In this document: one piece after another, positions 1 through 26,782 of the stretch
How positions within the stretch are numbered: position 1 is the stretch's first letter
Layout: every line of letters begins with the position of its first letter
NCBI GenBank assembly: GCA_002409965.1
Contig: DHON01000105.1
Coordinates: 5,461-69,460 of the forward strand
Length of the DNA stretch: 64,000 nucleotides
Direction of reading: 5' to 3'
From: Firmicutes bacterium UBA5389
GTDB taxonomy: Bacteria > Bacillota > DTU025
The notes under the pieces: model-generated
Told to the model about the DNA's origin: nothing
What the model saw: only the letters and a program-made list of their open reading frames with translations
Database searches by the model: none
Position numbers and translations under genes: made by a program

Positions 1-943
1 GGAGATCTGAGTCTCGAAGAACGATATCCGTATCAGCTAGCCTGTCCAGCAACCCTGACACATGACCCAGCTCGATCTCTCGAGCCACTAGGAGGCTCTC
101 AATCTCGCGGTCTACGCGTACCGTGGTCCGCAGAATGAGGTTGAGGTTCCCAATGAAGCTCATCGGCTCTTTCGATTCTCCTAGCGATTCTGCACACCTC
201 TCCGCGAACAGGTTGATGCGATCTAGCCAGTCGTGTCTCATGAGCGGAGGTTCACCAGACACCAGGCTAGGAAACCGACTCAGCTGGGGATACAGACTCC
301 TCGCATCAGTCGTCTGCCAAGCCAGATTCCACACCGATTCCAGCGTCTGTGCCTTGCTTGGACGCCGCTTTCTCGAGTCCGCAGTGCTGTGTTCAGCCCA
401 CTGATGCTGCATCTGCAATTCGGATATCCGTTTACGCACGGCCTTTCTGGTAGCATCGACCGTTTTCACAATTTCGCTGATGGAAACGGGAGTCTCAACG
501 AGAAAGTCCTTGAGCAGAACTTCGGCATCTTGCTCTTCGAACAGGTGATGCAAGACATCCTGAGAGAGAAACCCGGCTCTAACAGCGAGTTTCCTGTGAT
601 CTGCCGGCACATCTCTCCAACTGCCAGCGTCCCAGTCAACATGTTCATTGGGGCCGGATACGGTGGCTACGAGCTTGTCCTGCGTTCCATCTTCCATCAG
701 TGCCTCTATGGCAACCGTGGCACAGTCCGTCCGCCCCACCGAGATGACGGGCACACGTTCCTTGTAGTAGTGTCCAGTTAGCGCCAAGCATAGTGCGTCC
801 ACGAGACTAGTTTTTCCGAATCCATTAGGACCTGTCACTAGGACGATGTCTGCGTCTGTGTCCAAGGTCTTGGCCTTGACGAATCCGCGGAAACCCTCTG
901 CTGTGATCGTTCTGACTCTACATATTCTCTGTGGCATCCAAAT
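1..943 (-). CDS. SMC/RecF-like ABC ATPase, N-terminal part (LmuB-like); partial, continues beyond the window start
   Basis: The reverse-strand ORF starts at ATG 941-943, overlapping the stop of the upstream gene. My translation is MPQRICRVRTITAEGFRGF...IVLVTGPNGFGKTSLVDALCLALTG: a Walker A (GPNGFGKTS) plus the 'DAL.LAL.G' motif typical of SMC/RecF/AAA_23 heads. It reads open to position 1. It is absent from the supplied ORF track because no stop lies inside the window. Confidence 0.7.
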   Translation of the reverse strand, partial: MWMPQRICRVRTITAEGFRGFVKAKTLDTDADIVLVTGPNGFGKTSLVDALCLALTGHYYKERVPVISVGRTDCATVAIEALMEDGTQDKLVATVSGPNEHVDWDAGSWRDVPADHRKLAVRAGFLSQDVLHHLFEEQDAEVLLKDFLVETPVSISEIVKTVDATRKAVRKRISELQMQHQWAEHSTADSRKRRPSKAQTLESVWNLAWQTTDARSLYPQLSRFPSLVSGEPPLMRHDWLDRINLFAERCAESLGESKEPMSFIGNLNLILRTTVRVDREIESLLVAREIELGHVSGLLDRLADTDIVLRDSDL

Positions 944-1628
944 CAGCCTCTCTCATTCTCTCGCCAATGCAGTCCAGTCGCCCCTGGATCCAAGCGTCAA
1001 GCTCAGACCTAAGGTACTCGGTGTCACCGTCTCGATTGGTCTCAGCAGCATGGCGCAATATGGTGATGATCTGGGAGATCAAAGCACGGTGAAGCTCTGA
1101 CAGGCTCATCGAGTCCCCTTTGTCGTTGAGCCTGCGGATAAACGTTTCGGTGCTTATCGGCTTCAATGGAGCACTCATTTCGCTCGTCCCCGTGCCTAAC
1201 ACGGCCCTCGATACACACTCCGAGACCGCGGCGATGGAATCAACTGGAAGCATGGCGAAATCTCCACGGTGCCAGTCCTGGTTGCTCGAGGCAGACTGGA
1301 GTTCCTGCAATAGGTTCTGATCTTCCGCGAGAGCAATGCAGATACAAGGACCGAATAGCCCAAGCTGGATTGCGCACGCCGCCATGGTTCTCATCAGGCG
1401 TGCAATGTCGTTGGCACACCGTACCTGATGACCCTGTACGCCTTCCCGCTGAACCACGACTGCGCAAAGGGCAATGTCCGTCAAGTACACGCAGTCCAGC
1501 TCTACAGCACAGTCGGGCGGCAGCGCACATCGCTTGGTGTCATCATCCAGCCGTAGCTCGGCTCTCCGGAGTGGTCCAAATGGCGCAGTCCGCTGGCTGA
1601 GTTCCAGACCCGCTTCTGTGACACTCAT
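918..1628 (-). CDS. Hypothetical 236-aa protein, candidate small middle subunit (LmuC/DdmB-like position) between the SIR2 and SMC genes
   Basis: The ORF is overlap-coupled to both neighbours: its stop overlaps the ATPase start, and its start overlaps the SIR2 stop at 1625-1628. I see no recognisable motif. Confidence 0.5.
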   Translation of the reverse strand: MSVTEAGLELSQRTAPFGPLRRAELRLDDDTKRCALPPDCAVELDCVYLTDIALCAVVVQREGVQGHQVRCANDIARLMRTMAACAIQLGLFGPCICIALAEDQNLLQELQSASSNQDWHRGDFAMLPVDSIAAVSECVSRAVLGTGTSEMSAPLKPISTETFIRRLNDKGDSMSLSELHRALISQIITILRHAAETNRDGDTEYLRSELDAWIQGRLDCIGERMREADLDATENM

Positions 1629-3577
1629 ATGGCATGCACCTCCATTACCGGTCGCGCTACACGGCTTATGCGAGGCCGATCCTCATCGACAAGGAGATTA
1701 CAATGGGCAAGGTTGCGTGTAAACACATTCTGTATCGAATCAGCAGTCGATGAAACGCCTGCATTGGTTCGGAGCAGACTGCTAAGCGGTATTGAGTATA
1801 CGTGGATGAAACGCGTAGCTGTTGCTTCCTCATCTTTCTTGTCCATGGCCCTGATCCTCATAGACTTCGCCTTGACAGAGTGTCCGACCAGTATCTGCAC
1901 TATGGTACCCACGTTCCCGAGGCAAGACGAATAAGGCAGCGTCTCGGTCGAGCTGAATGCGCAGTCAGGGTGAGTCAGCGTGATCAGCATCTTCGGCCCA
2001 GCCTTTAGCTCGTCGTACCTGAAGTAGGTTCCAAGTATGTCAGTGCAATTGACTCTCTGCTTGATGTACTCACAGGAGGCCTGAGGCGACAGGACGGTAG
2101 TATGTCTCCCGTATAGCAAATAGAGCACCAGAAAGAACGCTGGCACAAGTACTGGCCTATCGGCCAGTGCACAGTACCAACTGCTGCTGTCTTTCCAGAC
2201 CTTTTGACGATACCTAACATGCCACATCCACCTTGACAGAAGCGTTGAATGGCCATCTAGATCGAGCATTGCCTGCAATCTCCCGAAAATATGCATGTTT
2301 GAGTCATCGCCAAGCGACGGCGTAGGGAGCAGCCAGTCTGTAAGCTCAGCCATCAGGGCATGTGAGCCATAGGATGCCTCATCAACCACGTGCCAGAAGG
2401 TCGTTCCGGGCCGAAGCTGTGCACAAAGCAGCTTCCAAAACACAGCCATGTACACGTACTTCCACAGCAGATCGGCAGCGAGCGCCCTACCCCCCGCAGT
2501 GCCCGGCCAGAACGAACCGTCCCGGCCGGTCAGGCAATTGCCGTAGACTGACAGGTTCTGTTCCGACAGGGTTACGCCGCATGAATGAAGGAACGAGAAG
2601 AGCATCTGTTTCTGATCGAAGGAAAGGCATTCTTCATACGCGTGCACAAACGGAGCATTGGGTTGTTGCCACGCGTCCGAGGACTCCCTAGGTGATTCAG
2701 GACCGCGATTGTCTAGTGTCGGAGCGCCATCTCTATTGCCCGAGCTGCCGAACTCCTCACAGATCTGAGTGAACGTGTGCTTGACCTGAGGCTCCGGACT
2801 GCCAAAGCCACTGAAGACAAGGCATCGAGTACGAAGTCGGTCCCTAAGCAATTCCCGGCTCCAGTGCCGATCACGCCAGTCCTGAAGTTGGGATCCTGTG
2901 AGCAGGATGGTCTTGGCGAGCGCTTCCCGATCGGACCACCGGTGGTGCGTTGAACTGCGCGCGAGACGCTCCGAGCATCCATTGATGTAGTATACCTTGA
3001 GCACCGGTCTACCATCCGCGCTTCGGAAGCCCGCGCCGTTCCTATACTCATGGAGATTTGCAATCTCCTTCAAATGCTTGTCGGAATGCAGGCATTGGTT
3101 CTCAAATGTGTCTACGAAGGCTCTAGAAATGCAAATGTCGAAATTGGTGGTGATTATCTCCTCGATGACGCCCTCTCGAGCCAGGAACGCCAGATATCGA
3201 TGAGCCGGTACGATACAGATAGTGGTGAAGTCCTGAATGCGCAGTGTTCTGTAAACGAGGGACTGATATGGGTATCGTGATCCTCTGCTGGTTGTCTCCC
3301 ACACAAACCTGTCACAGCAATACGCCAAGGAGCGGGGGCTGTTGCATTCTCCTCGAGACATCTGCGCTTGACAATCTCCGTAGCACTGCAGATTCCGGCA
3401 CACCCGATTAATCATGTACGATGTCTTTGCCACCGGCCTTCCCCTAGGGCAGGTCGACCCATATGATATTCCAGCGCCGATGAACGGGACTGCGCTCCTG
3501 TCCATGATCCGCTCTACAAGCCTGGCAAAACGCGCCTCCGTGGTTCCATTGCCCGAGGCTCTCGCTTCCTCAGCCAT
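1625..3577 (-). CDS. SIR2-family (SIR2_2-type) protein of 650 aa, a likely NAD+-depleting effector (LmuA-like position)
   Basis: It carries 'SAVPFIGAGISYG' (a GAGIS NAD-binding loop) and 'EEIITTNFDICISRAF' (the TTNYD-type SIR2_2 motif). It sits 5' of the small ORF and the SMC ATPase on the same strand. Confidence 0.7.
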   Translation of the reverse strand: MAEEARASGNGTTEARFARLVERIMDRSAVPFIGAGISYGSTCPRGRPVAKTSYMINRVCRNLQCYGDCQAQMSRGECNSPRSLAYCCDRFVWETTSRGSRYPYQSLVYRTLRIQDFTTICIVPAHRYLAFLAREGVIEEIITTNFDICISRAFVDTFENQCLHSDKHLKEIANLHEYRNGAGFRSADGRPVLKVYYINGCSERLARSSTHHRWSDREALAKTILLTGSQLQDWRDRHWSRELLRDRLRTRCLVFSGFGSPEPQVKHTFTQICEEFGSSGNRDGAPTLDNRGPESPRESSDAWQQPNAPFVHAYEECLSFDQKQMLFSFLHSCGVTLSEQNLSVYGNCLTGRDGSFWPGTAGGRALAADLLWKYVYMAVFWKLLCAQLRPGTTFWHVVDEASYGSHALMAELTDWLLPTPSLGDDSNMHIFGRLQAMLDLDGHSTLLSRWMWHVRYRQKVWKDSSSWYCALADRPVLVPAFFLVLYLLYGRHTTVLSPQASCEYIKQRVNCTDILGTYFRYDELKAGPKMLITLTHPDCAFSSTETLPYSSCLGNVGTIVQILVGHSVKAKSMRIRAMDKKDEEATATRFIHVYSIPLSSLLRTNAGVSSTADSIQNVFTRNLAHCNLLVDEDRPRISRVARPVMEVHAI

Positions 3578-3980
3578 CTCATCCTCCTACGCTCGTTTCC
3601 TGATACGCTGGCGAGACCAGTTCATCAGCCCTAGACGGCTGCATGTACCAACAAGCTGCGATTCCATGCGCTCTTTCAGCTCTGCCATACACGACGCGGC
3701 ATCCATGCGGCACCACCTGCAGCGACCAAGTGCCTTCGACGGCTGCACGATCCTGCGATGTCATATATTCTCGACAATTACTCCATATCCTTCATGAAAC
3801 CAGCATTGGCGACCACGCTGAAAGTCCGAGGTGCTCTGCCTCGTCTATCGCCGGTGCGTTTCTGCCTTCACAGCCTCTCGAGGATGATGCAGTTGTCGCT
3901 TGAAAACGCGGCACTCTACCGCAATCATCGCATGTCGAGCACCTGCAGGCCAAGTGTTGAACCCCACTAAGCCAGCTGCC

Positions 3981-6305
3981 CTAAGAAGACGGCGGACTCA
4001 GATCGATCCGAAAGTCCTTGAGTAACTGGGGAATCTCCCCATCGCCTATCTGAGCCTGTAGGTACTCAACCAGATCCTGTTGCCGTGGCTGGCCAAAGGC
4101 CATCCGATATAGAGCTAGACGCTGATGCAGCGTATTCACGGCCTGAATCTCCCAACTCATGGGTAGAGACGCGACATGCCGGCGAGTTCTGTAGCCCTGC
4201 GCAGGCTCGTACACCCAGAACGGTTCGAGATCGCTTCTGCCGGCCCCTCTAGCTCTTAATGCCCGTTGGAACATGAGCCCCCATGGATCAGCTAACCCCG
4301 GAGGTCGACTAATCCTGCGCCAGACGGCACTCATACCCAAATCGAGCGCAAGGTTTCGCCGTACGGTGTGGCATTTGTACCTGTGTACGCGACCATCACG
4401 CTGCTCAAGGTCCACCGGGTTGGTGGGCAGATTCCAGTGGTAGACCTCATGGCAGTATTGATGCAGATCCACTCCCTCCTGGCCTGTTGAGGTGGTAGCG
4501 AGGATGAAGGGACGAAACGGCGAGTTGAAAGCCGACATTACCTGTGCTGAACGCACTGCGCGGTCATTTGCATCGTCTGCGCTGTCTTTGCCGTCTCCTA
4601 GCCTGATGGCAAACTTACATCGAATTCGGTGGTTCTCCAGCAACAGCTGGTCTTCGCAGCCGTCATGAGCATTGTACGAAATCTCATCAAAATCCAGGGC
4701 GACTGTCCTTATCGTAAGGGCACTGCATACCTTGTCGCAAATGGCTCGCAGATTCGTTGCGAGGTCGGTGTCCGCAGTCCCAGTTGAGTCACTGAGGACA
4801 TGGAGGTACTCATCCATCACCGACTGCAAGTTTCCGCTGATGCAGTAGTCCAGCACGCTGACGCGGTAAGGATCTGAGGTCTTGGTCCGCTTCTTCTGAA
4901 CCAAGATAGACGACTCCGGCAAATTGAACATGTCCCTGAAAGCCAGAGCTACCTTCGCTGCACAGCTCATCAGAATCATTCCCTCCGTGTCGGCGGGAGG
5001 CCTGCTTCTGAGCAATCTGCACATGGCCCGAAGAGTCACAACCGCCGGCGATCCAATGGCCACCTTGGCCAGCGTCTCGGCCACCCCGTCCAGGACACGC
5101 TCTGGTATAGCTCGCCCACGCCGCCGCGCGCTGCGGGAGCGGTTATGTCCCTCTAGCTCATCGAATCCGCGCACAAACGCCTCTACGTGCTCTCGAAAGC
5201 CAGCCGAGTCCCCATCGTCGGACCTAGATCGCACCATTGCGCTCCATCTCTCGCCGGCACAGCAGTCCTCCGAATGCAGCCAATGCCCTGACAGCTCAGA
5301 ACTGTAGTGAGCATCCAGCGCCGCCATGGACATCCATGTCCAGTACTCGGTAGAACAGTATCGGGACCGCTTGTTCACAGCCGTGCCTCGACCCGTTATA
5401 CCACTGCCGCAAGTCTCAGTACCCGATCCCACTCGAACTCGTGACAGGAGGCTACGCACCTCTGCCGCCGCCCTTTTCAGCAATACTGACTCCTCCGGAA
5501 TCTCACCTGCACCATGGCCCACGCAGCTAGCCGCGATTTTCGCAGGGTCGATCATGGTAGCTAGTGTCCAACACGGGTAGGCTAGGGTCAGGTTAGCCAT
5601 ATTCTCGGGGAATCCGCCTGCGCCTCTGTCGAATCTCAGGATGCCAGTGCTGCGCTTATCGCTACTGTAACGGACTGAGCGTACGCCTGCCTCGACAGCT
5701 GCTCGTCTCTCCGCCTCGTAGCTGCACAGCATAGCAATGACCTTCGGGACAACCTGCCACGCTGAGAACACAAGCGACTTGGTGAACCCTTCTCGTGGGA
5801 CGGCTGAGTAAGGTTCTCGTGCCGGACGGCAATACGGCAGGGAAGGAGGAATCCATAGAAGCCGCCATAAGGCAGTGTCAATCGTATTCCGCATGAGGAC
5901 ACGCAGCCTTCCGTTAGCGGGATCTATCTTCCTGTAGTGGTTTACGTCATCCCACTTCAGCTGTGTCTTCAGTGCTGCGCGTATCGCTTCCTCAGCTGCC
6001 TCATGGTAATCGGTACCTGTGATGTAGTCCTCAAGCCGCCTCTTCAAGTCGTATGCGCTCTTGTCCATGCAGTTTAGGATGTACGGCGCGGACTTCCAGT
6101 ATTCCACTGCATCAGGAGCGCCCAGGCTGCGAGCCACGCGGTCTACCGCGCAGAACGATCTGAGATCCCGGGGCATAACAATGCACGAATCACGCACTTC
6201 CTCAACCATCCCGCCGCGGTCAGGCGTTGCAGCCAGGCGTTCGGTGCGCACCATTACTCTTCGCAGACACTTCTCCACTGCCTCTTTTGCCTCCGACCTA
6301 TGCAC
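3981..6305 (-). CDS. Helicase C-terminal-domain protein of 774 aa (SF2 motifs IV-VI only); no Walker A or DExH found
   Basis: 'KSLVFSAWQ' looks like motif IV. 'ILATTSTGQEGVDLH' looks like motif V, and 'NPVDLEQRDGRVHRYK' like motif VI (QRxGRxxR). About 400 aa lie between motifs IV and V. The apparent start is GTG at 6305. No GxGK[ST] or DExH appears anywhere in the ORF. Confidence 0.55.
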   Translation of the reverse strand: MHRSEAKEAVEKCLRRVMVRTERLAATPDRGGMVEEVRDSCIVMPRDLRSFCAVDRVARSLGAPDAVEYWKSAPYILNCMDKSAYDLKRRLEDYITGTDYHEAAEEAIRAALKTQLKWDDVNHYRKIDPANGRLRVLMRNTIDTALWRLLWIPPSLPYCRPAREPYSAVPREGFTKSLVFSAWQVVPKVIAMLCSYEAERRAAVEAGVRSVRYSSDKRSTGILRFDRGAGGFPENMANLTLAYPCWTLATMIDPAKIAASCVGHGAGEIPEESVLLKRAAAEVRSLLSRVRVGSGTETCGSGITGRGTAVNKRSRYCSTEYWTWMSMAALDAHYSSELSGHWLHSEDCCAGERWSAMVRSRSDDGDSAGFREHVEAFVRGFDELEGHNRSRSARRRGRAIPERVLDGVAETLAKVAIGSPAVVTLRAMCRLLRSRPPADTEGMILMSCAAKVALAFRDMFNLPESSILVQKKRTKTSDPYRVSVLDYCISGNLQSVMDEYLHVLSDSTGTADTDLATNLRAICDKVCSALTIRTVALDFDEISYNAHDGCEDQLLLENHRIRCKFAIRLGDGKDSADDANDRAVRSAQVMSAFNSPFRPFILATTSTGQEGVDLHQYCHEVYHWNLPTNPVDLEQRDGRVHRYKCHTVRRNLALDLGMSAVWRRISRPPGLADPWGLMFQRALRARGAGRSDLEPFWVYEPAQGYRTRRHVASLPMSWEIQAVNTLHQRLALYRMAFGQPRQQDLVEYLQAQIGDGEIPQLLKDFRIDLSPPSS

Positions 6306-6309
6306 TCTC

Positions 6310-6385
6310 TACTTGCCAAACAGACCCAGCGACTCGCAGGAGTCCTCCATGATGCAGTTGCTCGATGCGACAAGACTGAACGGTC
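6310..6385 (-). pseudogene. Remnant of a DegT/WbpE-type aminotransferase, a ~25-codon mosaic with an internal deletion
   Basis: The minus strand reads PFSLVASSNCIMEDSCESLGLFGK*. This joins two motifs of the 25.5-26.8 kb DegT gene (PFSFIASSNCI ... EDSCESLGS). Nucleotide identity by eye is ~30/33 and ~26/30 over those two blocks. It ends at a TAG immediately 5' of the GTG start of the helicase-C ORF and in the same frame. Confidence 0.5.
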
Positions 6386-6571
6386 GGCTGTGTGAACACC
6401 ACAAAAGGCGGCGCCCACGTGGAACTGCGGCGTTAACGTTCAGCAGTGTTGCCAATGTGGCGCAAATGTCGGAAGCGCTGGGATGAGTGAGGAGCCTATA
6501 GAGGGTTCAGGGGGGGCCTGGACCCTAGGGGAATCGCAGCGGCAGTTTACGCCACTTGACAAGACCTGACC

Positions 6572-7537
6572 TCAAGATCGGCGTACGTGCCTTCCAATCG
6601 CTTCAACCGCCAGGTCGGCGAGGAACTGGGATCCGGATCCGATCTCCATCAGCTCACGCATGGCGTCTACCTGGCTGGAGTCATCCAGGAACGATGCAAG
6701 GGCGCAGTGATTCCTAGTCCCCACTGAGACCACTACATAGAGATAGCTGACGTGGTCTCTGTCGCTCCGACCAACCTTGAACCTGACCACGTATGCATCA
6801 CCCTCCGGGCTCAGCACGAGCACGCTGCGGTATCCTCCATCCCACCAACAACCCCTGATGCGTCCCAGAGGTCTGGTACCTATGCCCATGTCCTCCATGA
6901 ACGTGTGTCCGCGCCATTCAAACGGCTCGGTGAACACTGCCGAATTCGAGCCAATGAGTTCATGCAAGCGCCCTGCAGGTTCCGTCGCGTCCGGATCGCT
7001 GAACGTGCCAGACGATAGCAAATGAGCGCTTTCGCCGCCACTACTATAGGGCTGGTCTGCCAATTGCCCTAAACCGCACTGACATTGCTCCATATTCAGC
7101 TGGCCAAAGTGTGGCAGTTCATCTACAGGTGTTTTGCTGTGACGATAGTGATCCATCATCCAGGCCTTTACTGCCCGCCCGTTGGTCAACGCCATATAGC
7201 GTGCTCCCGTAGCTGTGCAATAGCCGAAAGCTTGCTCTTCATGGGCGACAGTCAGCGAAACGCCCTGCTTCTTGCATTCCACAACCATCAACGCACACTG
7301 CGCCTTCGCCGGCTTCACGAGGATGTCCGCTCTCTGCCCGCTCCCGTCCTGCAGAGGAATCTCAGTATGAATCCATGAAGACGGATATCCATACTCCTGC
7401 ATGAGCGTCTCGACGGCATTGTGCCTGACCTTCTCCTCACCAGTTAGGCGCACGAGCCTCTGACGGCTGCGGTCAAGCCAGTATTTCCTCCTGCCGCAGC
7501 GATACGTGGAGCGCCCGTCCCAGTTCCCTATGATCAT
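6572..7537 (-). CDS. PD-(D/E)xK nuclease-like protein of 321 aa (HsdR-N / Mrr-like N-terminal domain)
   Basis: 'EIPLQDGSGQRADILV...CALMVVECKKQG' fits the D...E-x-K pattern of type I R-subunit N-terminal / restriction-endonuclease-like domains. It lies 8 nt downstream of the Dna2-like gene on the same strand. Confidence 0.5.
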   Translation of the reverse strand: MIIGNWDGRSTYRCGRRKYWLDRSRQRLVRLTGEEKVRHNAVETLMQEYGYPSSWIHTEIPLQDGSGQRADILVKPAKAQCALMVVECKKQGVSLTVAHEEQAFGYCTATGARYMALTNGRAVKAWMMDHYRHSKTPVDELPHFGQLNMEQCQCGLGQLADQPYSSGGESAHLLSSGTFSDPDATEPAGRLHELIGSNSAVFTEPFEWRGHTFMEDMGIGTRPLGRIRGCWWDGGYRSVLVLSPEGDAYVVRFKVGRSDRDHVSYLYVVVSVGTRNHCALASFLDDSSQVDAMRELMEIGSGSQFLADLAVEAIGRHVRRS

Positions 7538-7544
7538 ACGTCGG

Positions 7545-10500
7545 TCACCGCCTGTACACCGCCAGCCGCGTGCCTTCGGGATGCATGTCGCACTTGACTG
7601 TGAAGTCCAGGGCCTGGCCTGCGGCAGTGTGCATTCCGAGCCTGCGCATCATGCCGGCGCCCATTGCAGTCTCAGGGTTTTCCAGTACAGATAAACAAGG
7701 CTTGAGCAATGGACGTGGGACGAACACTATACATTTCGACTTGGCTCTTGTAACGGCAACGTTGAAGCGGTTAAGACTGTATATGAACTCGCCCTCGATC
7801 ATAGCGCATTCCGGGTCGGCCAGGCCGTAGCTGACGATGACGACTTCACACTCCTGCCCCTGCATCTTGTCGACGGTGTCGACGAAGTGCGGCGCGCGCA
7901 GGTTGCGTCTGTCCAGCTCCTGTTTGATGGCGGATATCTGCGCGTGATGGGGCGACACGATGAACAGGCCCCGCTGCCAGAACGCCGCATCCCCGGCCAT
8001 GGTGTCGGGGAATGGGCGATTCGTGCTCTCGTCCTTCAGGCGTCTGCGCAGTTCGCATGTGAGTTCCGCCACGAGCTCTGCCTCGGCCCAGTTTGCCGCG
8101 CCTGTCTGGACATCCTCCAGCACGCACATTGTCCATGAATAGGCGGGATCGATCACGGTTTCGACCCACTGGCGTTCAGTGCGCGAGCCAGCCGAACCAC
8201 GTCTTGCCGAGCCGCCGGCTGAGCGCGGCGCGGCAATGGGCATTCGCCTCTCCCCTACTCTTTCGTTGGCGCTACGGTATCCGGGTCCGTACAGACAATC
8301 TGCGCTGAAGCTGCACAACGACGTGTTCATGCGGAAGTTCTCCAGCAGCTGGCAGGTAATCGTGTTGGCCTCACGGTCGTGCTCGCGAACAGCCTCGAAC
8401 ACTGAGCGATGAAGCACCGGTTCGTCTGGGCCGACCTCAGGATACACGCCATTAATGATTGGCGAAAGCTGTTTGTCGTCTCCGGCGATGATTAGGCGGC
8501 CCGCCGGCGACAGCCGGGAGATGGCCAGCAGTGACTCGGCCGCTTTGACCTGGGAGCCTTCGTCGATCACCACTGCGTCGAACGGGCGCGGCCCGGGCTG
8601 TGACCTAAACGCCTTGAGCATGGAGTACACGGTGCCGCCCACAATGCACTGCTCATTCCGCCCGATGAACCCCATCGCCCCGTCACGATCGATACAGTCA
8701 ATGCCTTCGCAACCCTGGGTGTAGACAGGCCCGAGCTTTGCGAGCGGAGCATCATCCTGATCCATGCCGAGATCCTCCCGGAGCGAATCTATCTTTCGCA
8801 GACAGTTCTCAATGGCGGCATGGGTAAAGGCTGTGACCAATATGCGCATGGGTCTGCGCGCGCGGGTCGCCGCCTCCAGCAGTGTCAGGACTGCAAGGGC
8901 TAGGAAGTGTGTCTTCCCGGTACCCGGAGGACCCCATACAAGCGTCAGTTGGTTGTCGATGATGTGGCTGAGCGCGTCTAGCTGGCTGTCTGTGAAGCGA
9001 TCCCGCCGCTCTCTGCGCTTCAGGAGCCTCTCGATCTCTTTGCGGACAGGGCCCTTTAGAGCTGTCCTTGGCCCAAGAAGGGAGTGCGGCGACGTGAGCA
9101 CAGTGGTGGCCGGGGCGGCGCCGGACTGGTCGATCTCGCGCAGACGCCCGATCACTCTGTCGGTGTTGAAGTCCGTGAACGCTGGGTGCAGCAGATAACG
9201 CCTCCCCGGCACGATGTTGGGAGACTCGGGGCCAGGCTTGATTCTCAGGGTGAAACGGCGGCGGTCGCCCTCGACCTCGATCTCCCCGCAGATCTCGGCG
9301 AAGGCCAGCGCCGCGTTCTTCGGAACGAACCACTTGTTCCGCCACCTGTAGTCGGCGAAGCGCATCTGCGCCATCTCGCCGTCCTCGGAATCCTCGGTGA
9401 GCAGAAGACGCCACTGGCCGACCAGCTGTTCGATCTCTGGCGACGTTGTTACGAAGATACCCTCCCCGGCGGCGACTATGGGTATGGTAGTCCCCGCCCT
9501 TTCCCTTTCGAGACGGGTGAGCGTGCGCACATTGCGAATACTCAGATAATCCATGACGCTTTCATATCTGGTCATGAAAGCTAGCCGTGAAAGCACTGGG
9601 TCACTGAAGTCATCAGGCATGGGCATGCGGAATTTGGGCGGCCAAGCGAAGAGGTTGTCGGCGTGGTCACGGATTCGGTCCACCACATTTCGAGCTGCCC
9701 ATAATCGAATCCTCAAGCGGCGCCCTATCCGTTCCACATAGTCTGACTTACCACGATACCACACGTCGAATATGGCGTCGGACTTCAGCCTGTTGGAGAA
9801 GGCGAAGTCCCAGTAGGCGTCAACCTCATAGCTGAACGAATCGCTGCTATCCTCGTCGTTGAAAGCCGCGAGCACGTCACCCAGCTGGTAGGCCACAGCG
9901 ATGGGCATTTGGAAGAGTCGACGGATCACCGACGTGAGCGCCACAAGAGGGGAATCCGCAGTCTCATCCGGGCGCTCTTCGGTCGACATGAGATCCTCGC
10001 TCTGAAAATGAAACAGCAGAGCCAGAGCTTCCTCCGCCACATCTGGATCAGACAGCGCTTCCAGCAGGAGTTCCCTGAGCAGATCGGCTTCATACGAATC
10101 GAAGACATATGTCTGAAGCGACTTCTTGTCCTTCCACTCGCTGTGTGCGGCATTGTAGTCGTCAAGTTCCTGGAAGACCTCGTAGAGCGCCAGCACGAAG
10201 TCGCGCCTCACGTCCTCGCACTCATCGGGGCACGACGCTACGAACTGCCGGGCGTCGTAGCTGTCGGCAGAGAACACCTCATTGCTGCCGGTGCGGAGTA
10301 GACCTGCAGCGTATGTCAAACCCGATACAGGCTCGCGCTGCAGTGTCAACACCAGGCGAACGTTCTCGCCGCGGGGCATGGCAGGTGTGGCGCCGCCGGA
10401 CGCCACGACTTCGTCGGTGGTCAAGGCCTCGACTGCGTACTCCAGTTTCTCCTCTTGCCCGCCCAAAGTGGCCGAACCGTCGAGGATGCTGGGGGCATCC

Positions 10501-11369
10501 GCCCGCCTGAGGAATGCTGCCAAATCCGCAAGGGTATCAACGCCGTTATCTCTCAACAGACTGCGGCCCGCGGTAGTCAGATACGGAACCAGGGACACAC
10601 TCTGAGTTTCTTTGGCCTCTTCCCAGCAGTGTTCGAAATACTCACACCACTCGCACCTGTAGTTGAGGTGCCACGGCGCCTCAAGAGGATCGCACGACGT
10701 GATGCGGGGCAGCTCAACTCGGAGGAATTCCATCACGTAGAGCCTTATGGGTTCCTCGTCGAATACCTCGGGAGAGTCGGCTCCATATAGCCAGATGGCG
10801 GAGTCCTCGTATGACAGCTCTCCTGCGATACCCTGCGAATCCAGCACATGCTGCAGAATCAGCGCATACAGGCAGGTCTGCACCTTGTGCGACGTCTTCA
10901 GAGCGTCGGACGCCTTGACATCAATGACGCGGAAGGCGCGCTTGCGCCCCGGCAGGCGTTGTATGAGGTCAGGCCTGCATTGGCCGAACGACACCTCTTT
11001 CGGGTTCAGGTTGTAGTCCTCATAGAAGGACGGTGGGGCCTTCAGTGTGGCCTGGTAGAGGTATTCGCCGCTCTTCATCTGAGCCAGGCACCTGAGGCCG
11101 TCGCGCACCTCGAAGGTTCTCTCAGTAACGCGCTGATCGCCCGGGCCCGGCGCGATATGAACCTTGCCCGCGATCCTCTCCTCAATCACCTGCTGTTCCC
11201 ACTCGTACCCTCCCTGCAAGATAGCCCTGGTCACAGGGGAGTGATCGTACGGCGGGACGTAGATTCCGCGCCGGCGCTTCTCATCCTTGGCAATCGATCC
11301 AAACAGCAAGCATCGGTCACATTCGTGGTAGAAATGGCGAGCGATGCGAGACGGCGATAGTGAGTACAA
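7545..11369 (-). CDS. Dna2-like nuclease-helicase of 1274 aa: N-terminal Cas4/RecB-type PD-(D/E)xK nuclease with a Cys cluster, C-terminal SF1 Upf1/DNA2-family (AAA_11/AAA_12) helicase
   Basis: N-terminal region: 'FRVIDVKASD' and 'CLYALIL', plus 'YRCEWCEYFEHCW' (the C-x2-C-x5-C of Cas4/AddB-type Fe-S nucleases). Helicase motifs: 'LVWGPPGTGKTHFLA' (Walker A), 'AVVIDEGSQV' (motif II), 'DDKQLSPI', 'VDKMQGQECEVVIVS' and 'NVAVTRAKSKCIVF'. Confidence 0.8.
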   Translation of the reverse strand: MYSLSPSRIARHFYHECDRCLLFGSIAKDEKRRRGIYVPPYDHSPVTRAILQGGYEWEQQVIEERIAGKVHIAPGPGDQRVTERTFEVRDGLRCLAQMKSGEYLYQATLKAPPSFYEDYNLNPKEVSFGQCRPDLIQRLPGRKRAFRVIDVKASDALKTSHKVQTCLYALILQHVLDSQGIAGELSYEDSAIWLYGADSPEVFDEEPIRLYVMEFLRVELPRITSCDPLEAPWHLNYRCEWCEYFEHCWEEAKETQSVSLVPYLTTAGRSLLRDNGVDTLADLAAFLRRADAPSILDGSATLGGQEEKLEYAVEALTTDEVVASGGATPAMPRGENVRLVLTLQREPVSGLTYAAGLLRTGSNEVFSADSYDARQFVASCPDECEDVRRDFVLALYEVFQELDDYNAAHSEWKDKKSLQTYVFDSYEADLLRELLLEALSDPDVAEEALALLFHFQSEDLMSTEERPDETADSPLVALTSVIRRLFQMPIAVAYQLGDVLAAFNDEDSSDSFSYEVDAYWDFAFSNRLKSDAIFDVWYRGKSDYVERIGRRLRIRLWAARNVVDRIRDHADNLFAWPPKFRMPMPDDFSDPVLSRLAFMTRYESVMDYLSIRNVRTLTRLERERAGTTIPIVAAGEGIFVTTSPEIEQLVGQWRLLLTEDSEDGEMAQMRFADYRWRNKWFVPKNAALAFAEICGEIEVEGDRRRFTLRIKPGPESPNIVPGRRYLLHPAFTDFNTDRVIGRLREIDQSGAAPATTVLTSPHSLLGPRTALKGPVRKEIERLLKRRERRDRFTDSQLDALSHIIDNQLTLVWGPPGTGKTHFLALAVLTLLEAATRARRPMRILVTAFTHAAIENCLRKIDSLREDLGMDQDDAPLAKLGPVYTQGCEGIDCIDRDGAMGFIGRNEQCIVGGTVYSMLKAFRSQPGPRPFDAVVIDEGSQVKAAESLLAISRLSPAGRLIIAGDDKQLSPIINGVYPEVGPDEPVLHRSVFEAVREHDREANTITCQLLENFRMNTSLCSFSADCLYGPGYRSANERVGERRMPIAAPRSAGGSARRGSAGSRTERQWVETVIDPAYSWTMCVLEDVQTGAANWAEAELVAELTCELRRRLKDESTNRPFPDTMAGDAAFWQRGLFIVSPHHAQISAIKQELDRRNLRAPHFVDTVDKMQGQECEVVIVSYGLADPECAMIEGEFIYSLNRFNVAVTRAKSKCIVFVPRPLLKPCLSVLENPETAMGAGMMRRLGMHTAAGQALDFTVKCDMHPEGTRLAVYRR

Positions 11370-11460
11370 TACAGACTACCTCCCAAGCACTTCAGCGCGG
11401 ACACCGCGGGGCTCAACCCTCTACCGTCCGTTCCCTCCGCGGTAGATGTTGCCGCTGGGA

Positions 11461-11754
11461 TCATGCCGTTCCACGTGTTGCTTCTCGGTATCGCGCAAGT
11501 CGTCCTTTCTCGCAGACGGCTTGGCCTCGCCAAACTATCCACTGCTTCTTCGGATCGAGCCTTCCCGAGCGTACATGCTGCTGCTGCCTAACCCGAAGAT
11601 CCTCGGTCTGCCCGATGTACTTAATCTCGCCCGTCCTCTTGTCGATGTGCCTGTAGACACCCGGAGCATTCGGAATGGGACACTCCGAACCCTCGGTCTG
11701 GTCGGTCTTCTTCATGCGACCCGGTGGGATCGCTGACTTCTTGCCGCAAGACAT
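11461..11754 (-). CDS. Small GIY-YIG nuclease-domain protein (YhbQ/UPF0213-like)
   Basis: 'GVYRHIDKRTGEIKYIGQTEDLRVRQQQH' fits GIY-(x9-11)-YIG...R...H spacing. The true start may be an internal Met. Confidence 0.6.
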   Translation of the reverse strand: MSCGKKSAIPPGRMKKTDQTEGSECPIPNAPGVYRHIDKRTGEIKYIGQTEDLRVRQQQHVRSGRLDPKKQWIVWRGQAVCEKGRLARYREATRGTA

Positions 11755-11843
11755 ATCTCAGTCCTCCCGATTGGCGAATCTGCTATGGAGAGCAGAGTAA
11801 GCCGGATACTCTTGTGATTGCAGCGTCCATCTGCATACCTGCT

Positions 11844-12482
11844 CTAGTTGCCTAACAAGTCTTCGAGGATCAGCAACGCGGCAAGAGTCCTATTGAACAC
11901 CCTACGTGCCGTGCCCCACCCCGATGCTCTGAATTCCTCTTCATCTCTCTCGTACTTGTCTATTAGCGCGCTCATCTCTTGCTCACGTTGCTTCTCCGCA
12001 TCCAGCAGGGGCGTCTCCACCGGCTTCTCGATCCCAAACACCGCATTCAGTCGTGCTATCACCTGCCCAACCGGCTCATCGCCGTCTAGTTCATCCACTA
12101 TGTAGCTGCACCCATCCACAGTCTTGACATACGCGACCTCGTACTTTACCTCCCTATCAACAGGCCCGTTCTTGGCGATCGCCGGGTGATCTATCTGCTC
12201 GGTGAATGTCTGGTATGCGATGCCGTAGCTCCGGATCGTGGATGTTCTTATCACGTCCTTGCCCACCTGAACAAAGGCCGGGCATGCGTCCGCGATTATG
12301 TGCACCTTGATCGCTTTGGCTCCTTTGGGACTGCTCTCCGCCTCAAACTCGACTCTGGCACCTACTTCAGGCAGTTCTGGCGGCTGCACGTCGCTCACGT
12401 GGAAAAAGTACTTCTTGCCTTCGTAGTCATAGATGAACCCGAATCCGCGATCAGGAAAGTACTTTCTGATTATGCCACGCAT
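11844..12482 (-). CDS. Cold-shock-domain (CSD/OB) protein with a ~140-aa C-terminal extension of unknown function
   Basis: N-terminus 'RGIIRKYFPDRGFGFIYDYEGKKYFFHVSDV' matches the CspA-type RNP1/RNP2 pattern (GxVKWFNxxKGFGFI...DVFVHxS). Confidence 0.65.
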   Translation of the reverse strand: MRGIIRKYFPDRGFGFIYDYEGKKYFFHVSDVQPPELPEVGARVEFEAESSPKGAKAIKVHIIADACPAFVQVGKDVIRTSTIRSYGIAYQTFTEQIDHPAIAKNGPVDREVKYEVAYVKTVDGCSYIVDELDGDEPVGQVIARLNAVFGIEKPVETPLLDAEKQREQEMSALIDKYERDEEEFRASGWGTARRVFNRTLAALLILEDLLGN

Positions 12483-12683
12483 GGATCAACACTCCCCGCT
12501 TCATGTGTTCTCAGCAGTTCTTCAACACTGACTGCCCCGCCGTGCGTGATTGACTCTAGATACGCCACTCGCTCTTCCCGGTGCTCAAGCCTAGCCAAAG
12601 GCGTTCCGGCTACGATGGGACCGTCTGGTGCCAGAACCGGAACGCCCTACAGTAACATCATGGGTAACGAAATGCGCCAGGTT

Positions 12684-13211
12684 CTACTTGGGCATGAAAA
12701 AGAGAGATTGTATCTCAGATTTCCAGTCACGGTCTCCAACCAGTTGGTTGAAGTTCAGCGAGTAGCTGGCGGCTTCTACTAGGTCGCCTGATACACGCGT
12801 GGGGCGATGTGGCACGCCATTGTCATCAGTCCAAGCATCAAAGTCAAAACGACCGATCAAGGTGTGCTTATTGAGCGAGGTGATTCTGCGAACAAGTGGA
12901 ACGAAATCGCTGTCCCCTGTGATCAGCACAGCAACGTCATACCGATCCTCATGTGCGAAGTCAAGCACGTCAATTGCCAGCTCGACATCGACACCCTTCT
13001 GAGCTAGGCGATACTTTACATCGTCTTCGCCCGGGCACGGCTTCGGGATCTCGCGAACGGGTAGAAAATGCGGGGTGATACCAGCGACAATAAGCGCCAT
13101 CTCGAAGTCGCGTTCTTTCTGAAGCTGTCTTTCATCTGCCACATTCGTACTCGTGCGTCCGTCGTAGTAGTGGGCCGCAACTACTTTGGTAACGTCGACT
13201 GCTGCCTTCAC
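12684..13211 (-). CDS. NYN-domain (LabA-like, PIN-fold) putative ribonuclease
   Basis: 'KGVDVELAIDVLDFAHEDRYDVAVLITGDSDFVPLVRRI' is the characteristic NYN acidic-residue core. Confidence 0.75.
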   Translation of the reverse strand: MKAAVDVTKVVAAHYYDGRTSTNVADERQLQKERDFEMALIVAGITPHFLPVREIPKPCPGEDDVKYRLAQKGVDVELAIDVLDFAHEDRYDVAVLITGDSDFVPLVRRITSLNKHTLIGRFDFDAWTDDNGVPHRPTRVSGDLVEAASYSLNFNQLVGDRDWKSEIQSLFFMPK

Positions 13212-13546
13212 CTTGGCAGCGACATAGGTCTCCAGAAAGTGATGAAGGTTTGGAAGCGAAAACCATCCGCGTTGCGCAAATTACCGGAAATAGACCTGCC
13301 CCTGCCGAAAGTAGCTGCCATCGTAGAACACCATCACTCTGACAGCCTCCATGGTGCATACCTGCCTTTCACTGTTGTTTGGTAGCCCTGTCAGCTTTTC
13401 ATGTGCGCTATCCCGATAGACCGAGCCAGTGAACCACCTCCTTTGCGTCCAGCAAGCGACGGATCGTGAGAGGTTGGCAGTGCGCTTCCAGGTCGCTTAT
13501 GATGCGTATTCGCCCGCCGATGATGGGCGTGCAGAATGCTACCGCC

Positions 13547-16272: not shown

Positions 16273-16275
16273 TAT

Positions 16276-17424
16276 CTATGCCCCACCCTCAACAGCACTC
16301 AATTCTAGCGACTTTCGCGCAGTTTTGATGGCTGAACCAATCTCGGGCGTAAGAGCACCATTCTCGTCTAGCATAGGAACTGCAAACAAGGCGTTTATCG
16401 CCTTAGTCATCTGAGCCATTTCGTATATCGTCTGCTTGTCCTCATCTGCATAAGCATCGTATACCGCACCCTTTTCCTGGATTACGCAATCGGCCTCTGT
16501 GATGAGTTCCTTAAGCCTGTTTCCCATACTTCCTGCTACACGAGAATAACTGCCTGCAACGCTCCTAATGCCTCGAAGCGCCGTTTCAGCGTTGCGCATC
16601 TCCTCTGCTGCTATCTTTGCCCTATAATAGGCTGACCGAGCCCCGTCTTTATTAGCCTCAGCCTTGCTATACGCAACGATACTTCCAACCATCAGGGCTG
16701 GCCCTGCCGCCAATCCTCCAAGTATGGCAACTCCGCCTGCCATCCCCAACCCACCGGCTGCAAGCGAGCCGCCGCCGATATAGGCCAGCGTTGCGTTTTT
16801 AGCTGTAACGCCCACCAGACCAGCGATTTTCGTGCCAGTAGAAGCGGTGCCTATGAGAGCCGCAGTTCCATATGTAGCCATCCCCACGAAAACGCCACTC
16901 GTTCCTGTAGCTAGGGCTCCTGAAAGTGCCTGGGCACCCAAATTCGACGTGTGCGCAATACTAGTACGCTCTGAATCTGCAATAGTGTCAACTGCTGCCC
17001 GAATCTCAGCCGGGAGTTCTCCCCGCTCTACCGATTTCTCAAAGATCAACATGACCTCTGTAAATCGTTGGAACTGATCCTTGGCGATCCTTGCTTTCTT
17101 ACGCCCGAGCGATACTAGAGCCTTTTGCGTCCGTACTCGCTCATCTTCAAGAGCCCCCCTGGCGCTGTCGAAGACACGTTCGCCCTCGTCCGCAGCGTGA
17201 TGGCCTGCTCGATGAGACCGGCGTCGGTATTCCGATCCTGCCCATCGACGACCTGGCGTTTCGTGAACTCGTGCAGCCTGGCAGATGTTATGCGCAGGTC
17301 GGGGAGCGGCCTTCAGTCCTTCAGCCCCTGTCAGACAAGATGTTGCTGGTTGCGTCCTGGTGGGCGGAACCCTCCCACCACGCCGGAGCCCCGCTAACAA
17401 ACGCGCGACGGACGCGAGTCTCAA
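16276..17424 (-). CDS. Glycine-zipper membrane-associated protein (ORF of 382 aa; true start probably internal, e.g. GTG near 17.1-17.2 kb)
   Basis: It has 'GTSGVFVGMATYGTAALIGTASTGTKIAGLVGVTAKNATLAYIGGGSLAAGGLGMAGGVAILGGLAAGPALMVGSIVAY', which contains repeated GxxxG/A motifs. The 5' ~100 nt overlap the J-domain ORF end (17321). Confidence 0.5.
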   Translation of the reverse strand: MRLASVARLLAGLRRGGRVPPTRTQPATSCLTGAEGLKAAPRPAHNICQAARVHETPGRRWAGSEYRRRSHRAGHHAADEGERVFDSARGALEDERVRTQKALVSLGRKKARIAKDQFQRFTEVMLIFEKSVERGELPAEIRAAVDTIADSERTSIAHTSNLGAQALSGALATGTSGVFVGMATYGTAALIGTASTGTKIAGLVGVTAKNATLAYIGGGSLAAGGLGMAGGVAILGGLAAGPALMVGSIVAYSKAEANKDGARSAYYRAKIAAEEMRNAETALRGIRSVAGSYSRVAGSMGNRLKELITEADCVIQEKGAVYDAYADEDKQTIYEMAQMTKAINALFAVPMLDENGALTPEIGSAIKTARKSLELSAVEGGA

Positions 17425-25541: not shown

Positions 25542-26782
25542 CTATCCCCGCTCCCCGAGCGCCCCCTCCAACACCCCCGCAACGTACTCGACCTCTTCCT
25601 CTGTAATCCTGTTATGGAACGGTATCGCCACACTCGTCCGCCCCACCGCCTCCATCACCGGGAAGTCGCCCTCCCTGTACCCGAACCGCTCGCGGTAGAA
25701 CGGCTGCAGATGAATGGGCGTGAAGTAAGGCCGGCACCCGATCCCCGCCTCCTGGAACCGCTGCATCACCCGGTCTCTCACCGCCTGCTGCGCCTCGGCC
25801 CCGGCCTCCTCGCACCCAACCCGGATCACATAGACGAACCAGCTCATGAAGTCTACCTCCGGCGCCACCCGCGGCACCCAGACCCCCTCTATCCTCAACA
25901 GCCGCTCGCGCCACATCTGGGCCACCCGCGCCCGCTTCTCGAGGATCTCCCCGATCCGCCCCATCTGCACCACGCCCAGCGCCGCCGACATCTCATCGAT
26001 CCGGTAGTTGTAGCCCAGCCTTTCATGCGCTAGCCACACCCCTGCCTCGCCCCTGCCCTGGTTCCGCATGCTGTTGCATAGCGCGGCGATGCGGTCGTCG
26101 TCGGTGACGATCATCCCGCCCTCGCCCGTGGTTATCTGCTTGTTGGGGTAGAACGCGAACACAGCGGCGTCCGCGAAGTCCGGTCCGCCGGCTTTCTTCC
26201 CATTGTAGACCGACCCCAGCGACTCGCACGAGTCCTCTATGAACACAAGACCATGCTTCCGCGCGATATCGCGTATCTCATCTAGACGTGCCGGCTGCCC
26301 GAACGCATCCACCGCCAGTACCGCCCTCGCCCTCGGCGTGATGGCCTGCTCAATGAGGTCGGCGTCCATGTTCGCCGTGTCGGGCTCGATGTCGACAAAC
26401 ACCGGCTTGGCTTTCTCATACAGGATGCAGTTGCTCGATGCGATGAAACTGAACGGCGTGGTGATTACCTCATCACCGTCAGAGATGCCGTACGCCCGGA
26501 TCAGCAGGTGAAGACCGCTAGTGCCGCTGTTCACCGCCATGCAAACATACATGAGTTGTCTTTCGACGAACGCTTCGGCATGCTGGTTGACCGGGAATGG
26601 GCTTGTCGGCAGGACAGGCGACTGACCCGCCTGCTCTCGGAACCACCGGATTCTTTGGCCCGGAACAGGCGGGCGATTTCATCGGAATACGCAGCCAACT
26701 CAAACGGGGCCGCGTTCAGTGAATTCTCCCACTGAGAATCCGGCACCAAGAACAGCAATGGGAAGTGGAGCGTACTAGCCAT
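25542..26782 (-). pseudogene. DegT/DnrJ/EryC1/StrS-family PLP-dependent sugar aminotransferase, disrupted by a 1-nt frameshift near 26650-26662
   Basis: The 83-aa ORF (26531-26782) gives the N-terminus ('...RLFRAKESGG'). The next frame continues '...WFREQAGQSPVLPTSPFPVNQHAEAFVERQLMYVCMAVNSGTSGLHL...' into the 336-aa ORF (25542-26552), which carries the DegT motifs EDSCESLGS, GEGGM and LHLQPFY. The frame switch is at 'tccggtggttcc'. Confidence 0.7.

What the first reader, a model, noticed from the sequence alone, without database searches (positions are those of the whole stretch)
3981..7537. Helicase reduced to its C-terminal half beside an HsdR-N-like nuclease: degenerate restriction-type motor or split partner of the Dna2-like protein
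The 774-aa ORF has clear SF2 motifs IV, V and VI but no Walker A or DExH anywhere. About 400 aa separate motifs IV and V. The ORF begins at a GTG immediately after an in-frame DegT pseudogene scrap. The adjacent 321-aa ORF has an HsdR-N/Mrr-type PD-(D/E)xK signature. Either a type I/III-like R subunit lost its ATPase core through rearrangement (the DegT scar supports this), or these are accessory subunits acting with the complete SF1 helicase 8 nt upstream.
Basis: partly seen in the sequence, partly recalled or inferred. Interest (0 to 1): 0.55.

Follow-up and report, generated by a model that had tools for sequence, protein, structure and literature searches.

The report
Truncated Azaca helicase gene remnant
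The "half helicase" is the leftover 3' two-thirds of zacC, the helicase gene of the known Azaca anti-phage system. A recent rearrangement in a bacterial defence island cut it off; a sister strain still carries the whole system, so this is an ordinary gene remnant and not a new kind of motor.

Summary
A 774-codon ORF (3981-6305, minus strand) has SF2 motifs IV-VI but no Walker A or DExx motif. A DegT scrap lies in frame just upstream, and an intact HSDR_N_2 (PD-(D/E)xK) gene of 321 codons lies beside it.

The ORF matches the ZacC (Azaca) profile only over positions 347-1016 of 1019 (E 5e-192). Full-length relatives are 1070-1146 aa. No N-terminal remnant, zacA or zacB exists in any frame of the 64-kb window.

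A sister-strain contig (L101) settles it. It is 99.3% identical to window 6295-1847 and carries zacA-zacB-zacC (1146 aa) followed by the same 61-codon ORF and SIR2 gene. Homology stops abruptly at window 6295, inside zacC codon 376.

Left of the breakpoint lie 29 bp of an IS21-family end. These bases supply both the TAG stop and the GTG "start". Beyond them is a DegT remnant that another strain also carries behind its HSDR_N_2 gene.

Published work shows Azaca needs ZacA, ZacB and the ZacC Walker A motif, so the fragment is almost certainly dead. The 321-aa gene belongs to a separate module with the upstream Cas4-like/SF1 helicase gene. The SIR2 gene belongs to a Lamassu-like system.

Verdict: an ordinary pseudogene, of low interest.

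The parts
3981..6295 (-). 3' remnant of zacC (Azaca SF2 helicase). It holds the last two bases of codon 376 through the stop codon of the intact 1146-codon gene. Motifs IV-VI and the family-specific inserts are kept; Walker A, motif II and motif III are gone.
   Evidence: PADLOC ZacC E 5e-192, profile positions 347-1016 of 1019. Alignment A1. 99.3% nt identity to L101 8872-13321, where the gene is intact.
6296..6324 (-). Terminal scrap, about 27-29 bp, of an IS21-family element (TGTTTGGCAAGTAGAGAGTGCATAGGT). It supplies the in-frame TAG (6311-6309), the GTG 'start' (6305-6303) and the first 3 1/3 codons of the 774-codon ORF.
   Evidence: The same 22-mer (at most 4 mismatches) followed by conserved sequence occurs in L013-L016 beside IstB_IS21 genes, with four different left flanks. 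It occurs once in the window, with 0 expected by chance.
6325..6571 (-). Resident spacer behind the HSDR_N_2 gene. It contains an internally deleted DegT aminotransferase pseudogene scrap at about 6383-6325.
   Evidence: 6383-6351 and 6352-6325 match the window's DegT gene at 26456-26424 and 26242-26215. Peptide-level match. The whole stretch down to 6325 is shared at 95% with strain L102, which has no zacC.
6572..7537 (-). Intact 321-aa HSDR_N_2 protein: an N-terminal PD-(D/E)xK nuclease-like domain plus a conserved C-terminal domain (LGRIRGCWW motif). It is not part of Azaca.
   Evidence: PF13588 E 6.6e-19. Family alignment A2 with D71, E87 and K90 invariant and K89 nearly invariant. Homology with related species ends exactly at its stop codon, 6572.
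7545..11369 (-). Intact 1274-aa Cas4/RecB-like nuclease plus SF1 (AAA_11/AAA_12, Dna2/Upf1-like) helicase. It lies upstream of the HSDR_N_2 gene with a 7-nt gap.
   Evidence: Pfam, PADLOC and NCBIfam hits. The pairing is conserved in L102-L109, often in decayed form.
1..3764 (-). Neighbouring, separate Lamassu-like system: 61-codon ORF (3579-3764), SIR2_2 protein (1625-3577), 236-aa protein (918-1628) and the start of a 752-aa LmuB-like SMC ATPase (from 937, running off the window).
   Evidence: SIR2_2 E 2.5e-10. LmuB E 1.5e-17 for the 752-aa protein read from L001. The 61-codon ORF and the SIR2 gene follow intact zacC in L101, whose contig ends inside the SIR2 gene.

Best explanation
The 774-codon ORF is a pseudogene: the 3' two-thirds of zacC, the SF2 helicase/NTPase gene of the Azaca (zacABC) anti-phage system.

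In this strain a recent rearrangement removed zacA, zacB and the first 375 codons of zacC. Those codons encode the whole RecA1 lobe with Walker A, motif II and motif III. The remaining zacC sequence was joined, 29 bp inside the end of an IS21-family element, to a DegT-remnant spacer behind an unrelated HSDR_N_2 gene.

The apparent GTG start and the stop codon two codons before it both come from the IS scrap, so the long ORF is an accident of the junction. The ORF is still open because the event is very recent, at the level of within-species polymorphism.

Without an ATPase core, ZacA or the ZacB nuclease, the fragment cannot perform Azaca defence.

Shown: the truncation, the exact breakpoint, the intact sister allele, and the origins of the junction sequences. 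Inferred: the direction of the event (deletion or replacement in this strain), the role of the IS element, and the loss of function.
For: Family and extent:
- The ZacC profile matches only over positions 347-1016 of 1019.
- There are 1826 homologs. The listed ones are typically 1070-1146 aa and carry an N-terminal DEAD domain.
- tblastn with 10 full-length homologs, and with ZacA, ZacB and the ZacC N-terminal part, finds nothing else in the 64-kb window.
- In 79 of 80 genome loci the C-terminal part directly follows the N-terminal part. The one exception is cut by a contig end. ZacB and ZacA are present wherever the contig reaches far enough, with a single exception (L054).

Sister allele:
- P0135 (1146 aa) differs from the ORF at 10 of 770 residues.
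- Its contig L101 carries ZacA (E 7e-115), ZacB (E 1e-164), ZacC, the 61-codon ORF and SIR2.
- L101 8872-13321 equals window 6295-1847 at 99.3% identity. Nothing of L101 1-8871 is in the window.

Junction anatomy.

Constraint:
- Window-specific replacements fall at sites conserved in all 25 relatives: Y159C (Y in 25/25) and I707T (I or V in 25/25). V409A replaces a mostly V/I/L residue.
- Differences between the window and L101 in the zacC remnant are 10 non-synonymous to 4 synonymous. In the neighbouring SIR2 gene they are 6 to 5.

Function: BmAzaca needs ZacA, ZacB and ZacC for T4 DNA cleavage, and a ZacC Walker A mutant is inactive (bioRxiv 10.1101/2025.07.10.664194, read).
Against: - The ORF is uninterrupted for 774 codons and keeps nearly all family-invariant residues.
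- A GGAGG lies 11 nt upstream of an in-frame GTG at codon 10, and one gene caller used that start (P0136, 765 aa).
- No terminator-like site separates the ORF from the HSDR_N_2 gene, so a truncated protein could be made by read-through.
- The substitution counts are too small to prove relaxed selection.
- The left flank of the intact allele is unknown beyond 8.9 kb, so simple deletion cannot be told from replacement by recombination.
Confidence: 0.93

Rival explanations
1. The 774-aa protein is a functional ATPase-less subunit (RecA2 lobe plus inserts). It has been co-opted to work with the neighbouring HSDR_N_2 nuclease and the Cas4-SF1 helicase, or with the Lamassu-like system downstream.
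For: The ORF is open. A possible internal SD and GTG start exists at codon 10. No terminator-like site lies between it and HSDR_N_2. All genes are on the same strand.
Against: - This form is found in only one near-clonal population.
- The sister strain has the intact gene in the same position next to the same 61-codon ORF and SIR2 gene, so that adjacency predates the truncation.
- The SF1-HSDR_N_2 pair occurs without any zacC in L102-L109.
- The start codon comes from an IS scrap.
- Window-specific changes hit invariant sites.
Confidence: 0.04
2. It is a simple frameshifted or split gene, with the Walker A/DExH half surviving nearby in another frame or as a neighbouring ORF.
For: Another decayed zacC, in L017, is split into 133-aa and 704-aa ORFs behind zacA and zacB. 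Such cases therefore exist.
Against: tblastn with 10 full-length homologs at E up to 10 finds no N-terminal match anywhere in the 64 kb, in any frame. Homology to the intact allele stops abruptly at 6295.
Confidence: 0.01
3. It is a degenerate type I/III restriction R subunit whose nuclease domain is now the separate 321-aa HSDR_N_2 gene.
For: HSDR_N_2 domains occur at the N-terminus of HsdR proteins. In L007 a 55%-identical HSDR_N_2 gene precedes a ResIII helicase gene.
Against: - The 774-aa ORF matches ZacC (639 bits) and no restriction-enzyme model.
- The intact allele has its own N-terminus and different upstream neighbours.
- The HSDR_N_2 gene and its downstream spacer exist in strain L102 without zacC.
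Confidence: 0.01
4. It is an assembly chimera that joins two unrelated regions.
For: The breakpoint lies at repeat-like IS sequence, where assemblers can mis-join.
Against: An identical junction is present in contigs from six different samples and assemblers: ENA, NCBI GCA_002408765.1 and Logan.
Confidence: 0.01

Closest known systems
ZacC of the Azaca (ZacABC) anti-phage system (Millman et al. 2022, cited from my own knowledge; biochemistry in bioRxiv 10.1101/2025.07.10.664194)
   Same: The region from the post-motif-III segment to the C-terminus is colinear with ZacC (PADLOC E 5e-192). It keeps motifs IV-VI, the roughly 400-aa insert and the conserved C-terminal tail. It is 98.7% identical to an intact ZacC in a sister strain.
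   Different: It lacks the first 375 codons (Walker A, motif II, motif III). The window has no zacA or zacB. The start codon is borrowed from an IS scrap.
DISARM DrmD, Dpd DpdE and BREX BrxHI/BrxHII SNF2-like defence helicases
   Same: They are weakly similar around motifs V/VI, aa 588-645.
   Different: Similarity is confined to about 60 residues and scores lie far below the family cut-offs (45 bits against 610).
Type I restriction HsdR N-terminal nuclease domain (Pfam HSDR_N_2, PF13588)
   Same: The 321-aa neighbour carries this domain with a D...ExK core.
   Different: It is a stand-alone 321-aa protein with an unrelated conserved C-terminal domain. It is not fused to a motor. It is coupled in this lineage to a Cas4-SF1 helicase gene and has nothing to do with zacC.
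Other decayed Azaca loci, e.g. L017
   Same: In L017 zacC is split into 133-aa and 704-aa ORFs, so this gene decays independently elsewhere.
   Different: L017 retains zacA, zacB and the 5' end of zacC. The window retains only the 3' part.

Membership tests
Azaca ZacC | Full-length match to the ZacC profile (about 1020 positions) | tested here: not met
   The match covers only profile positions 347-1016. The intact relatives P0002 and P0135 match positions 5-1016.
Azaca ZacC | SF2 RecA1 lobe with Walker A (GxGKT), motif II (DEFx) and motif III (SAT) | tested here: not met
   In alignment A1 the ORF begins after motif III. No remnant is present in any frame.
Azaca ZacC | RecA2 lobe (motifs IV-VI) with the family-specific inserts and C-terminal tail | tested here: met
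   E 5e-192; 40-50% identity to 25 relatives over 99% of the ORF.
Azaca system (zacABC operon) | zacA (DUF6361) and zacB (PLD-like nuclease) immediately upstream of zacC | tested here: not met
   tblastn with ZacA and ZacB finds no hit in the window at E up to 1. They are present in sister strain L101 and in 63 and 70 of 80 other loci.
Azaca system (zacABC operon) | ATP-dependent, three-protein-dependent cleavage of phage DNA | not testable with these tools
   Literature only: all three proteins and the ZacC Walker A motif are required.
Type I/III restriction R subunit (HsdR/Res) | Best profile match to HsdR/Res, with a DEAD/ResIII ATPase core | tested here: not met
   The 774-aa ORF hits no REase_I or REase_III model and no ResIII or DEAD domain.
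HSDR_N_2 (PF13588), 321-aa ORF | Domain match above the gathering score, with the PD-(D/E)xK catalytic residues | tested here: met
   68.5 bits against a cut-off of 25. D71, E87 and K90 are invariant and K89 is nearly invariant in A2.
IS21-family element (junction scrap 6296-6324) | Terminal sequence found at element ends next to istB, with flanks that vary between insertions | tested here: met
   Four loci (L013-L016) have different left flanks and conserved inner sequence next to IstB_IS21 genes.
IS21-family element (junction scrap 6296-6324) | istA/istB genes and a second inverted end at this site | tested here: not met
   Only 29 bp remain before zacC sequence starts. IstB fragments lie beyond the window start.

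The most novel reading that the evidence does not exclude
The RecA1-less ZacC fragment is transcribed by read-through from the SF1-HSDR_N_2 operon and translated from the internal GGAGG/GTG at codon 10. It is then kept as a nucleic-acid-binding or decoy subunit that modulates the neighbouring Lamassu-like or SF1/HSDR_N_2 defence module. This would be an example of a defence-gene fragment being exapted directly after an IS-associated truncation.
Probability: 0.04. Interest if true: 0.5.

Novelty: already known. Interest (0 to 1): 0.12.

Why it matters
The main value is for annotation. The ORF should be labelled as a zacC pseudogene, and this strain should not be counted as carrying Azaca. It should not be called a new helicase-C family or a degenerate restriction motor.

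The locus is also a clean, base-resolved example of how defence islands turn over within a species. One strain has intact zacABC. Its sister, 99.3% identical across the shared region, has lost it at a junction made of an IS21 end and an older DegT scar. The adjacent SF1-HSDR_N_2 module is seen at several stages of decay in related strains.

Tried and rejected
1. Frame-shifted DExH or Walker A remnants. tblastn with 10 full-length ZacC homologs against all six frames of the window at E up to 10 gave only noise.

2. A single internal deletion of a five-gene cassette (HSDR_N_2, ResIII helicase, ZacA, ZacB, ZacC). This was suggested by L007, where 55%- and 49%-identical homologs of both flanking genes occur together. 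I rejected it as the specific history for four reasons:
- The near-identical intact allele L101 has TIR and SLATT genes upstream, not HSDR_N_2.
- Strain L102 shares the spacer behind HSDR_N_2 without any zacC.
- None of 80 Azaca loci has an HSDR_N_2 homolog, and one has a weak match to the ResIII helicase.
- The next-closest ZacC loci, L098 and L099, lack HSDR_N_2 too.

3. A dN/dS test for relaxed selection. Only 14 differences exist (10 non-synonymous, 4 synonymous) against 11 in SIR2 (6 and 5). The result is suggestive but not significant.

4. Wider context for the 321-aa family. The metagenome scan returned only the same lineage. The plasmid tblastn gave weak or unannotated hits. P0130 (43% identity) sits next to ScoMcrA_N, Tag glycosylase, ankyrin and EVE genes and no helicase. 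A general helicase partnership is therefore not established.

5. The promoter and terminator scan of 3500-7700 found nothing above the shuffle expectation.

Structure prediction was not run. The sequence evidence was already decisive.
Full report
**Observation**

All relevant genes lie on the minus strand. In order they are:
- a 1274-aa ORF (7545..11369);
- a 321-aa ORF (6572..7537);
- a 267-bp spacer;
- the 774-aa ORF (3981..6305, GTG start);
- a 61-codon ORF;
- a 650-aa SIR2_2 protein (1625..3577);
- a 236-aa ORF (918..1628).

Pfam gives only Helicase_C (aa 588-643) for the 774-aa ORF. It gives HSDR_N_2 (E 6.6e-19) for the 321-aa ORF, and Cas_Cas4 plus AAA_11/AAA_12 for the 1274-aa ORF.

**What the 774-aa ORF is**

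PADLOC matches it to ZacC of the Azaca system at E 5e-192, but only over profile positions 347-1016 of 1019. The big protein database holds 1826 homologs. The listed ones are typically 1070-1146 aa with an N-terminal DEAD domain, and the best relative outside its own 90%-identity cluster is 49% identical.

In a 26-sequence alignment (A1) the ORF starts right after motif III. The entire RecA1 lobe is missing: ADEvGLGKT, DEFQ/HRF and SATPYKM. The long insert between motifs IV and V is present in every relative.

tblastn with ten full-length homologs, and with ZacA, ZacB and the ZacC N-terminal part from the closest locus, finds nothing else anywhere in the 64 kb in any frame. This excludes a frameshift or a split gene.

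In 80 Azaca loci from other genomes, the C-terminal part directly follows the N-terminal part in 79. The one exception is cut by a contig end. ZacB and ZacA precede them wherever the contig reaches far enough, except in one locus, L054. A stand-alone helicase-C form is therefore not a family.

**The intact allele**

The ORF's 90%-identity cluster contains a 1146-aa member, P0135. It differs from the ORF at 10 of 770 residues.

Its contig L101 reads: TIR, SLATT, ThsB-TIR, a 470-aa gene, ZacA (E 7e-115), ZacB (E 1e-164), ZacC, the same 61-codon ORF, and SIR2.

L101 8872-13321 aligns to window 6295-1847 at 99.3% identity, with 30 mismatches and one gap. Nothing of L101 1-8871 is in the window.

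The breakpoint is between window 6296 and 6295, inside zacC codon 376. Two closely related strains therefore differ by the presence or absence of zacA, zacB and the first 375 codons of zacC.

**The junction**

- Window 6571-6325 is shared at 95% with another strain, L102, which has the SF1-HSDR_N_2 pair but no zacC.
- This stretch holds an internally deleted DegT remnant. PFSLVASSNCI and EDSCESLG correspond to aa 33-43 and 105-113 of the window's own DegT gene at 25542..26552.
- Other strains keep different DegT crumbs, e.g. L103.
- Window 6324-6296 (TGTTTGGCAAGTAGAGAGTGCATAGGT) is the end of an IS21-family element. The same sequence, followed by conserved inner sequence, lies next to IstB genes in L013-L016 with four different outer flanks.
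- The TAG at 6311-6309 and the GTG at 6305-6303 are both inside this scrap.

The 774-codon ORF is thus a chimera of 3 1/3 IS-derived codons and 770 2/3 zacC codons. Its "start" is accidental. Because only 29 bp of the IS remain and the joint with zacC is IS-internal, the last event was an illegitimate deletion or recombination. It was not a clean transposition.

**Is the fragment alive?**

It is probably not. Published biochemistry shows that Bacillus Azaca needs ZacA, ZacB (a PLD-like nuclease) and ZacC together to cut T4 DNA, and that a ZacC Walker A mutant is dead (bioRxiv 10.1101/2025.07.10.664194). Here all of those are absent.

Against L101, the fragment shows 10 non-synonymous and 4 synonymous differences. 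The adjacent SIR2 gene shows 6 and 5, after excluding a contig-end artefact.

Polarised with 25 outgroups, the window carries Y159C (Y in 25/25), I707T (I or V in 25/25) and V409A. L101 carries one change at a conserved site, A529V. This points to relaxed constraint, but the numbers are too small for a test.

Expression cannot be excluded. No terminator-like site separates the fragment from HSDR_N_2, and a GGAGG lies 11 nt before an in-frame GTG at codon 10.

**The 321-aa gene**

It is an intact member of a small, well-conserved family. D71, E87 and K90 are invariant, K89 is nearly invariant, and the C-terminal domain carries an LGRIRGCWW motif.

In this lineage it always follows the Cas4-SF1 gene with a 7-nt gap (L102-L109). 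Both genes are often decayed:
- the SF1 gene is reduced to a 73-aa ORF in L011;
- it carries an internal deletion in L108 and L109;
- HSDR_N_2 is frameshifted in L013-L016 and L111-L114.

Homology between species stops exactly at its stop codon, 6572. The DNA behind it is therefore a variable slot holding different cargo:
- a beta-lactamase gene (L011);
- HEPN/MNT genes (L013-L016);
- an SLFN_AlbA_2 gene (L102);
- M78/PemK genes (L103);
- in the window, the zacC stump plus the Lamassu-like system.

More distant homologs sit beside a ResIII helicase plus ZacABC (L007, 55% identity), or beside ScoMcrA_N, Tag glycosylase, ankyrin and EVE genes (L125, 43% identity). A functional link to the SF1 helicase is plausible in this lineage but not established in general.

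**The SIR2 gene**

It belongs with the 236-aa ORF and a 752-aa LmuB-like SMC ATPase (E 1.5e-17). Together they form a Lamassu-like system that continues past the window start. The 61-codon ORF and the SIR2 gene follow intact zacC in L101 as well (its contig ends inside the SIR2 gene), so that adjacency is older than the truncation.

**Verdict**

This is a real feature, correctly observed, with an ordinary explanation. It is a very recent 5'-truncated zacC pseudogene in a fast-turning defence island. It is not a new motor architecture.

Noticed in passing
window 6572-11369 (-); also L102-L109: The Cas4/RecB-like nuclease plus SF1 helicase (1274 aa) and the HSDR_N_2 protein (321 aa) form a two-gene module with a conserved 7-nt gap. 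PADLOC does not assign either protein to a defined system; the best hits are only partial matches to the helicase cores of DpdJ and MkoA. It may be an unclassified nuclease-helicase defence pair. It is found intact or at various stages of decay in related strains.
   Followed up: partly
window 1-3764 (-), continuing in L001 12542-17627: A Lamassu-like system with a SIR2_2 effector: 61-codon ORF, SIR2 (650 aa), 236-aa ORF and an LmuB-like SMC ATPase (752 aa, cut by the window start). IstB_IS21 fragments follow it.
   Followed up: partly
window 11390-13543 (-): The NYN-domain (175 aa), cold-shock-domain (212 aa) and 97-aa ORFs between the 272-aa ORF and the SF1 gene are absent from the related L011 and L102 loci. 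There the 272-aa ORF homolog lies directly upstream, within about 60 bp or less. This looks like another insertion or deletion polymorphism in the island.
   Followed up: no
window 25542-26552 (-): The DegT/DnrJ/EryC1 aminotransferase ORF (336 aa) matches the Pfam profile only from position 42, so it may itself be 5'-shortened. It is the paralog that identifies the DegT scrap at 6325-6383.
   Followed up: partly
window 14806-22480 (-): A run of large ORFs: 808 aa with AAA_13 (E 7.5e-44), 773 aa with a DnaJ domain, and 382-aa and 488-aa ORFs without Pfam hits. They may be further defence-island cargo.
   Followed up: no
L017 8120-10584: An independent decayed Azaca locus in another metagenome. 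Behind intact zacA and zacB, zacC is broken into 133-aa and 704-aa ORFs. The 704-aa part begins within about 20 residues of the window's truncation point.
   Followed up: partly
L007 240-4266: In the genome holding the closest ZacC homolog outside the ORF's own 90%-identity cluster, a 331-aa HSDR_N_2 gene (55% identical to the window's) and an 878-aa ResIII/SNF2 helicase (PADLOC mREase_IV-like, E 3e-25) sit directly upstream of zacABC. Both the window and L007 thus have HSDR_N_2 near zacC, yet 80 other Azaca loci do not. This is unexplained and may be coincidence within defence islands.
   Followed up: partly
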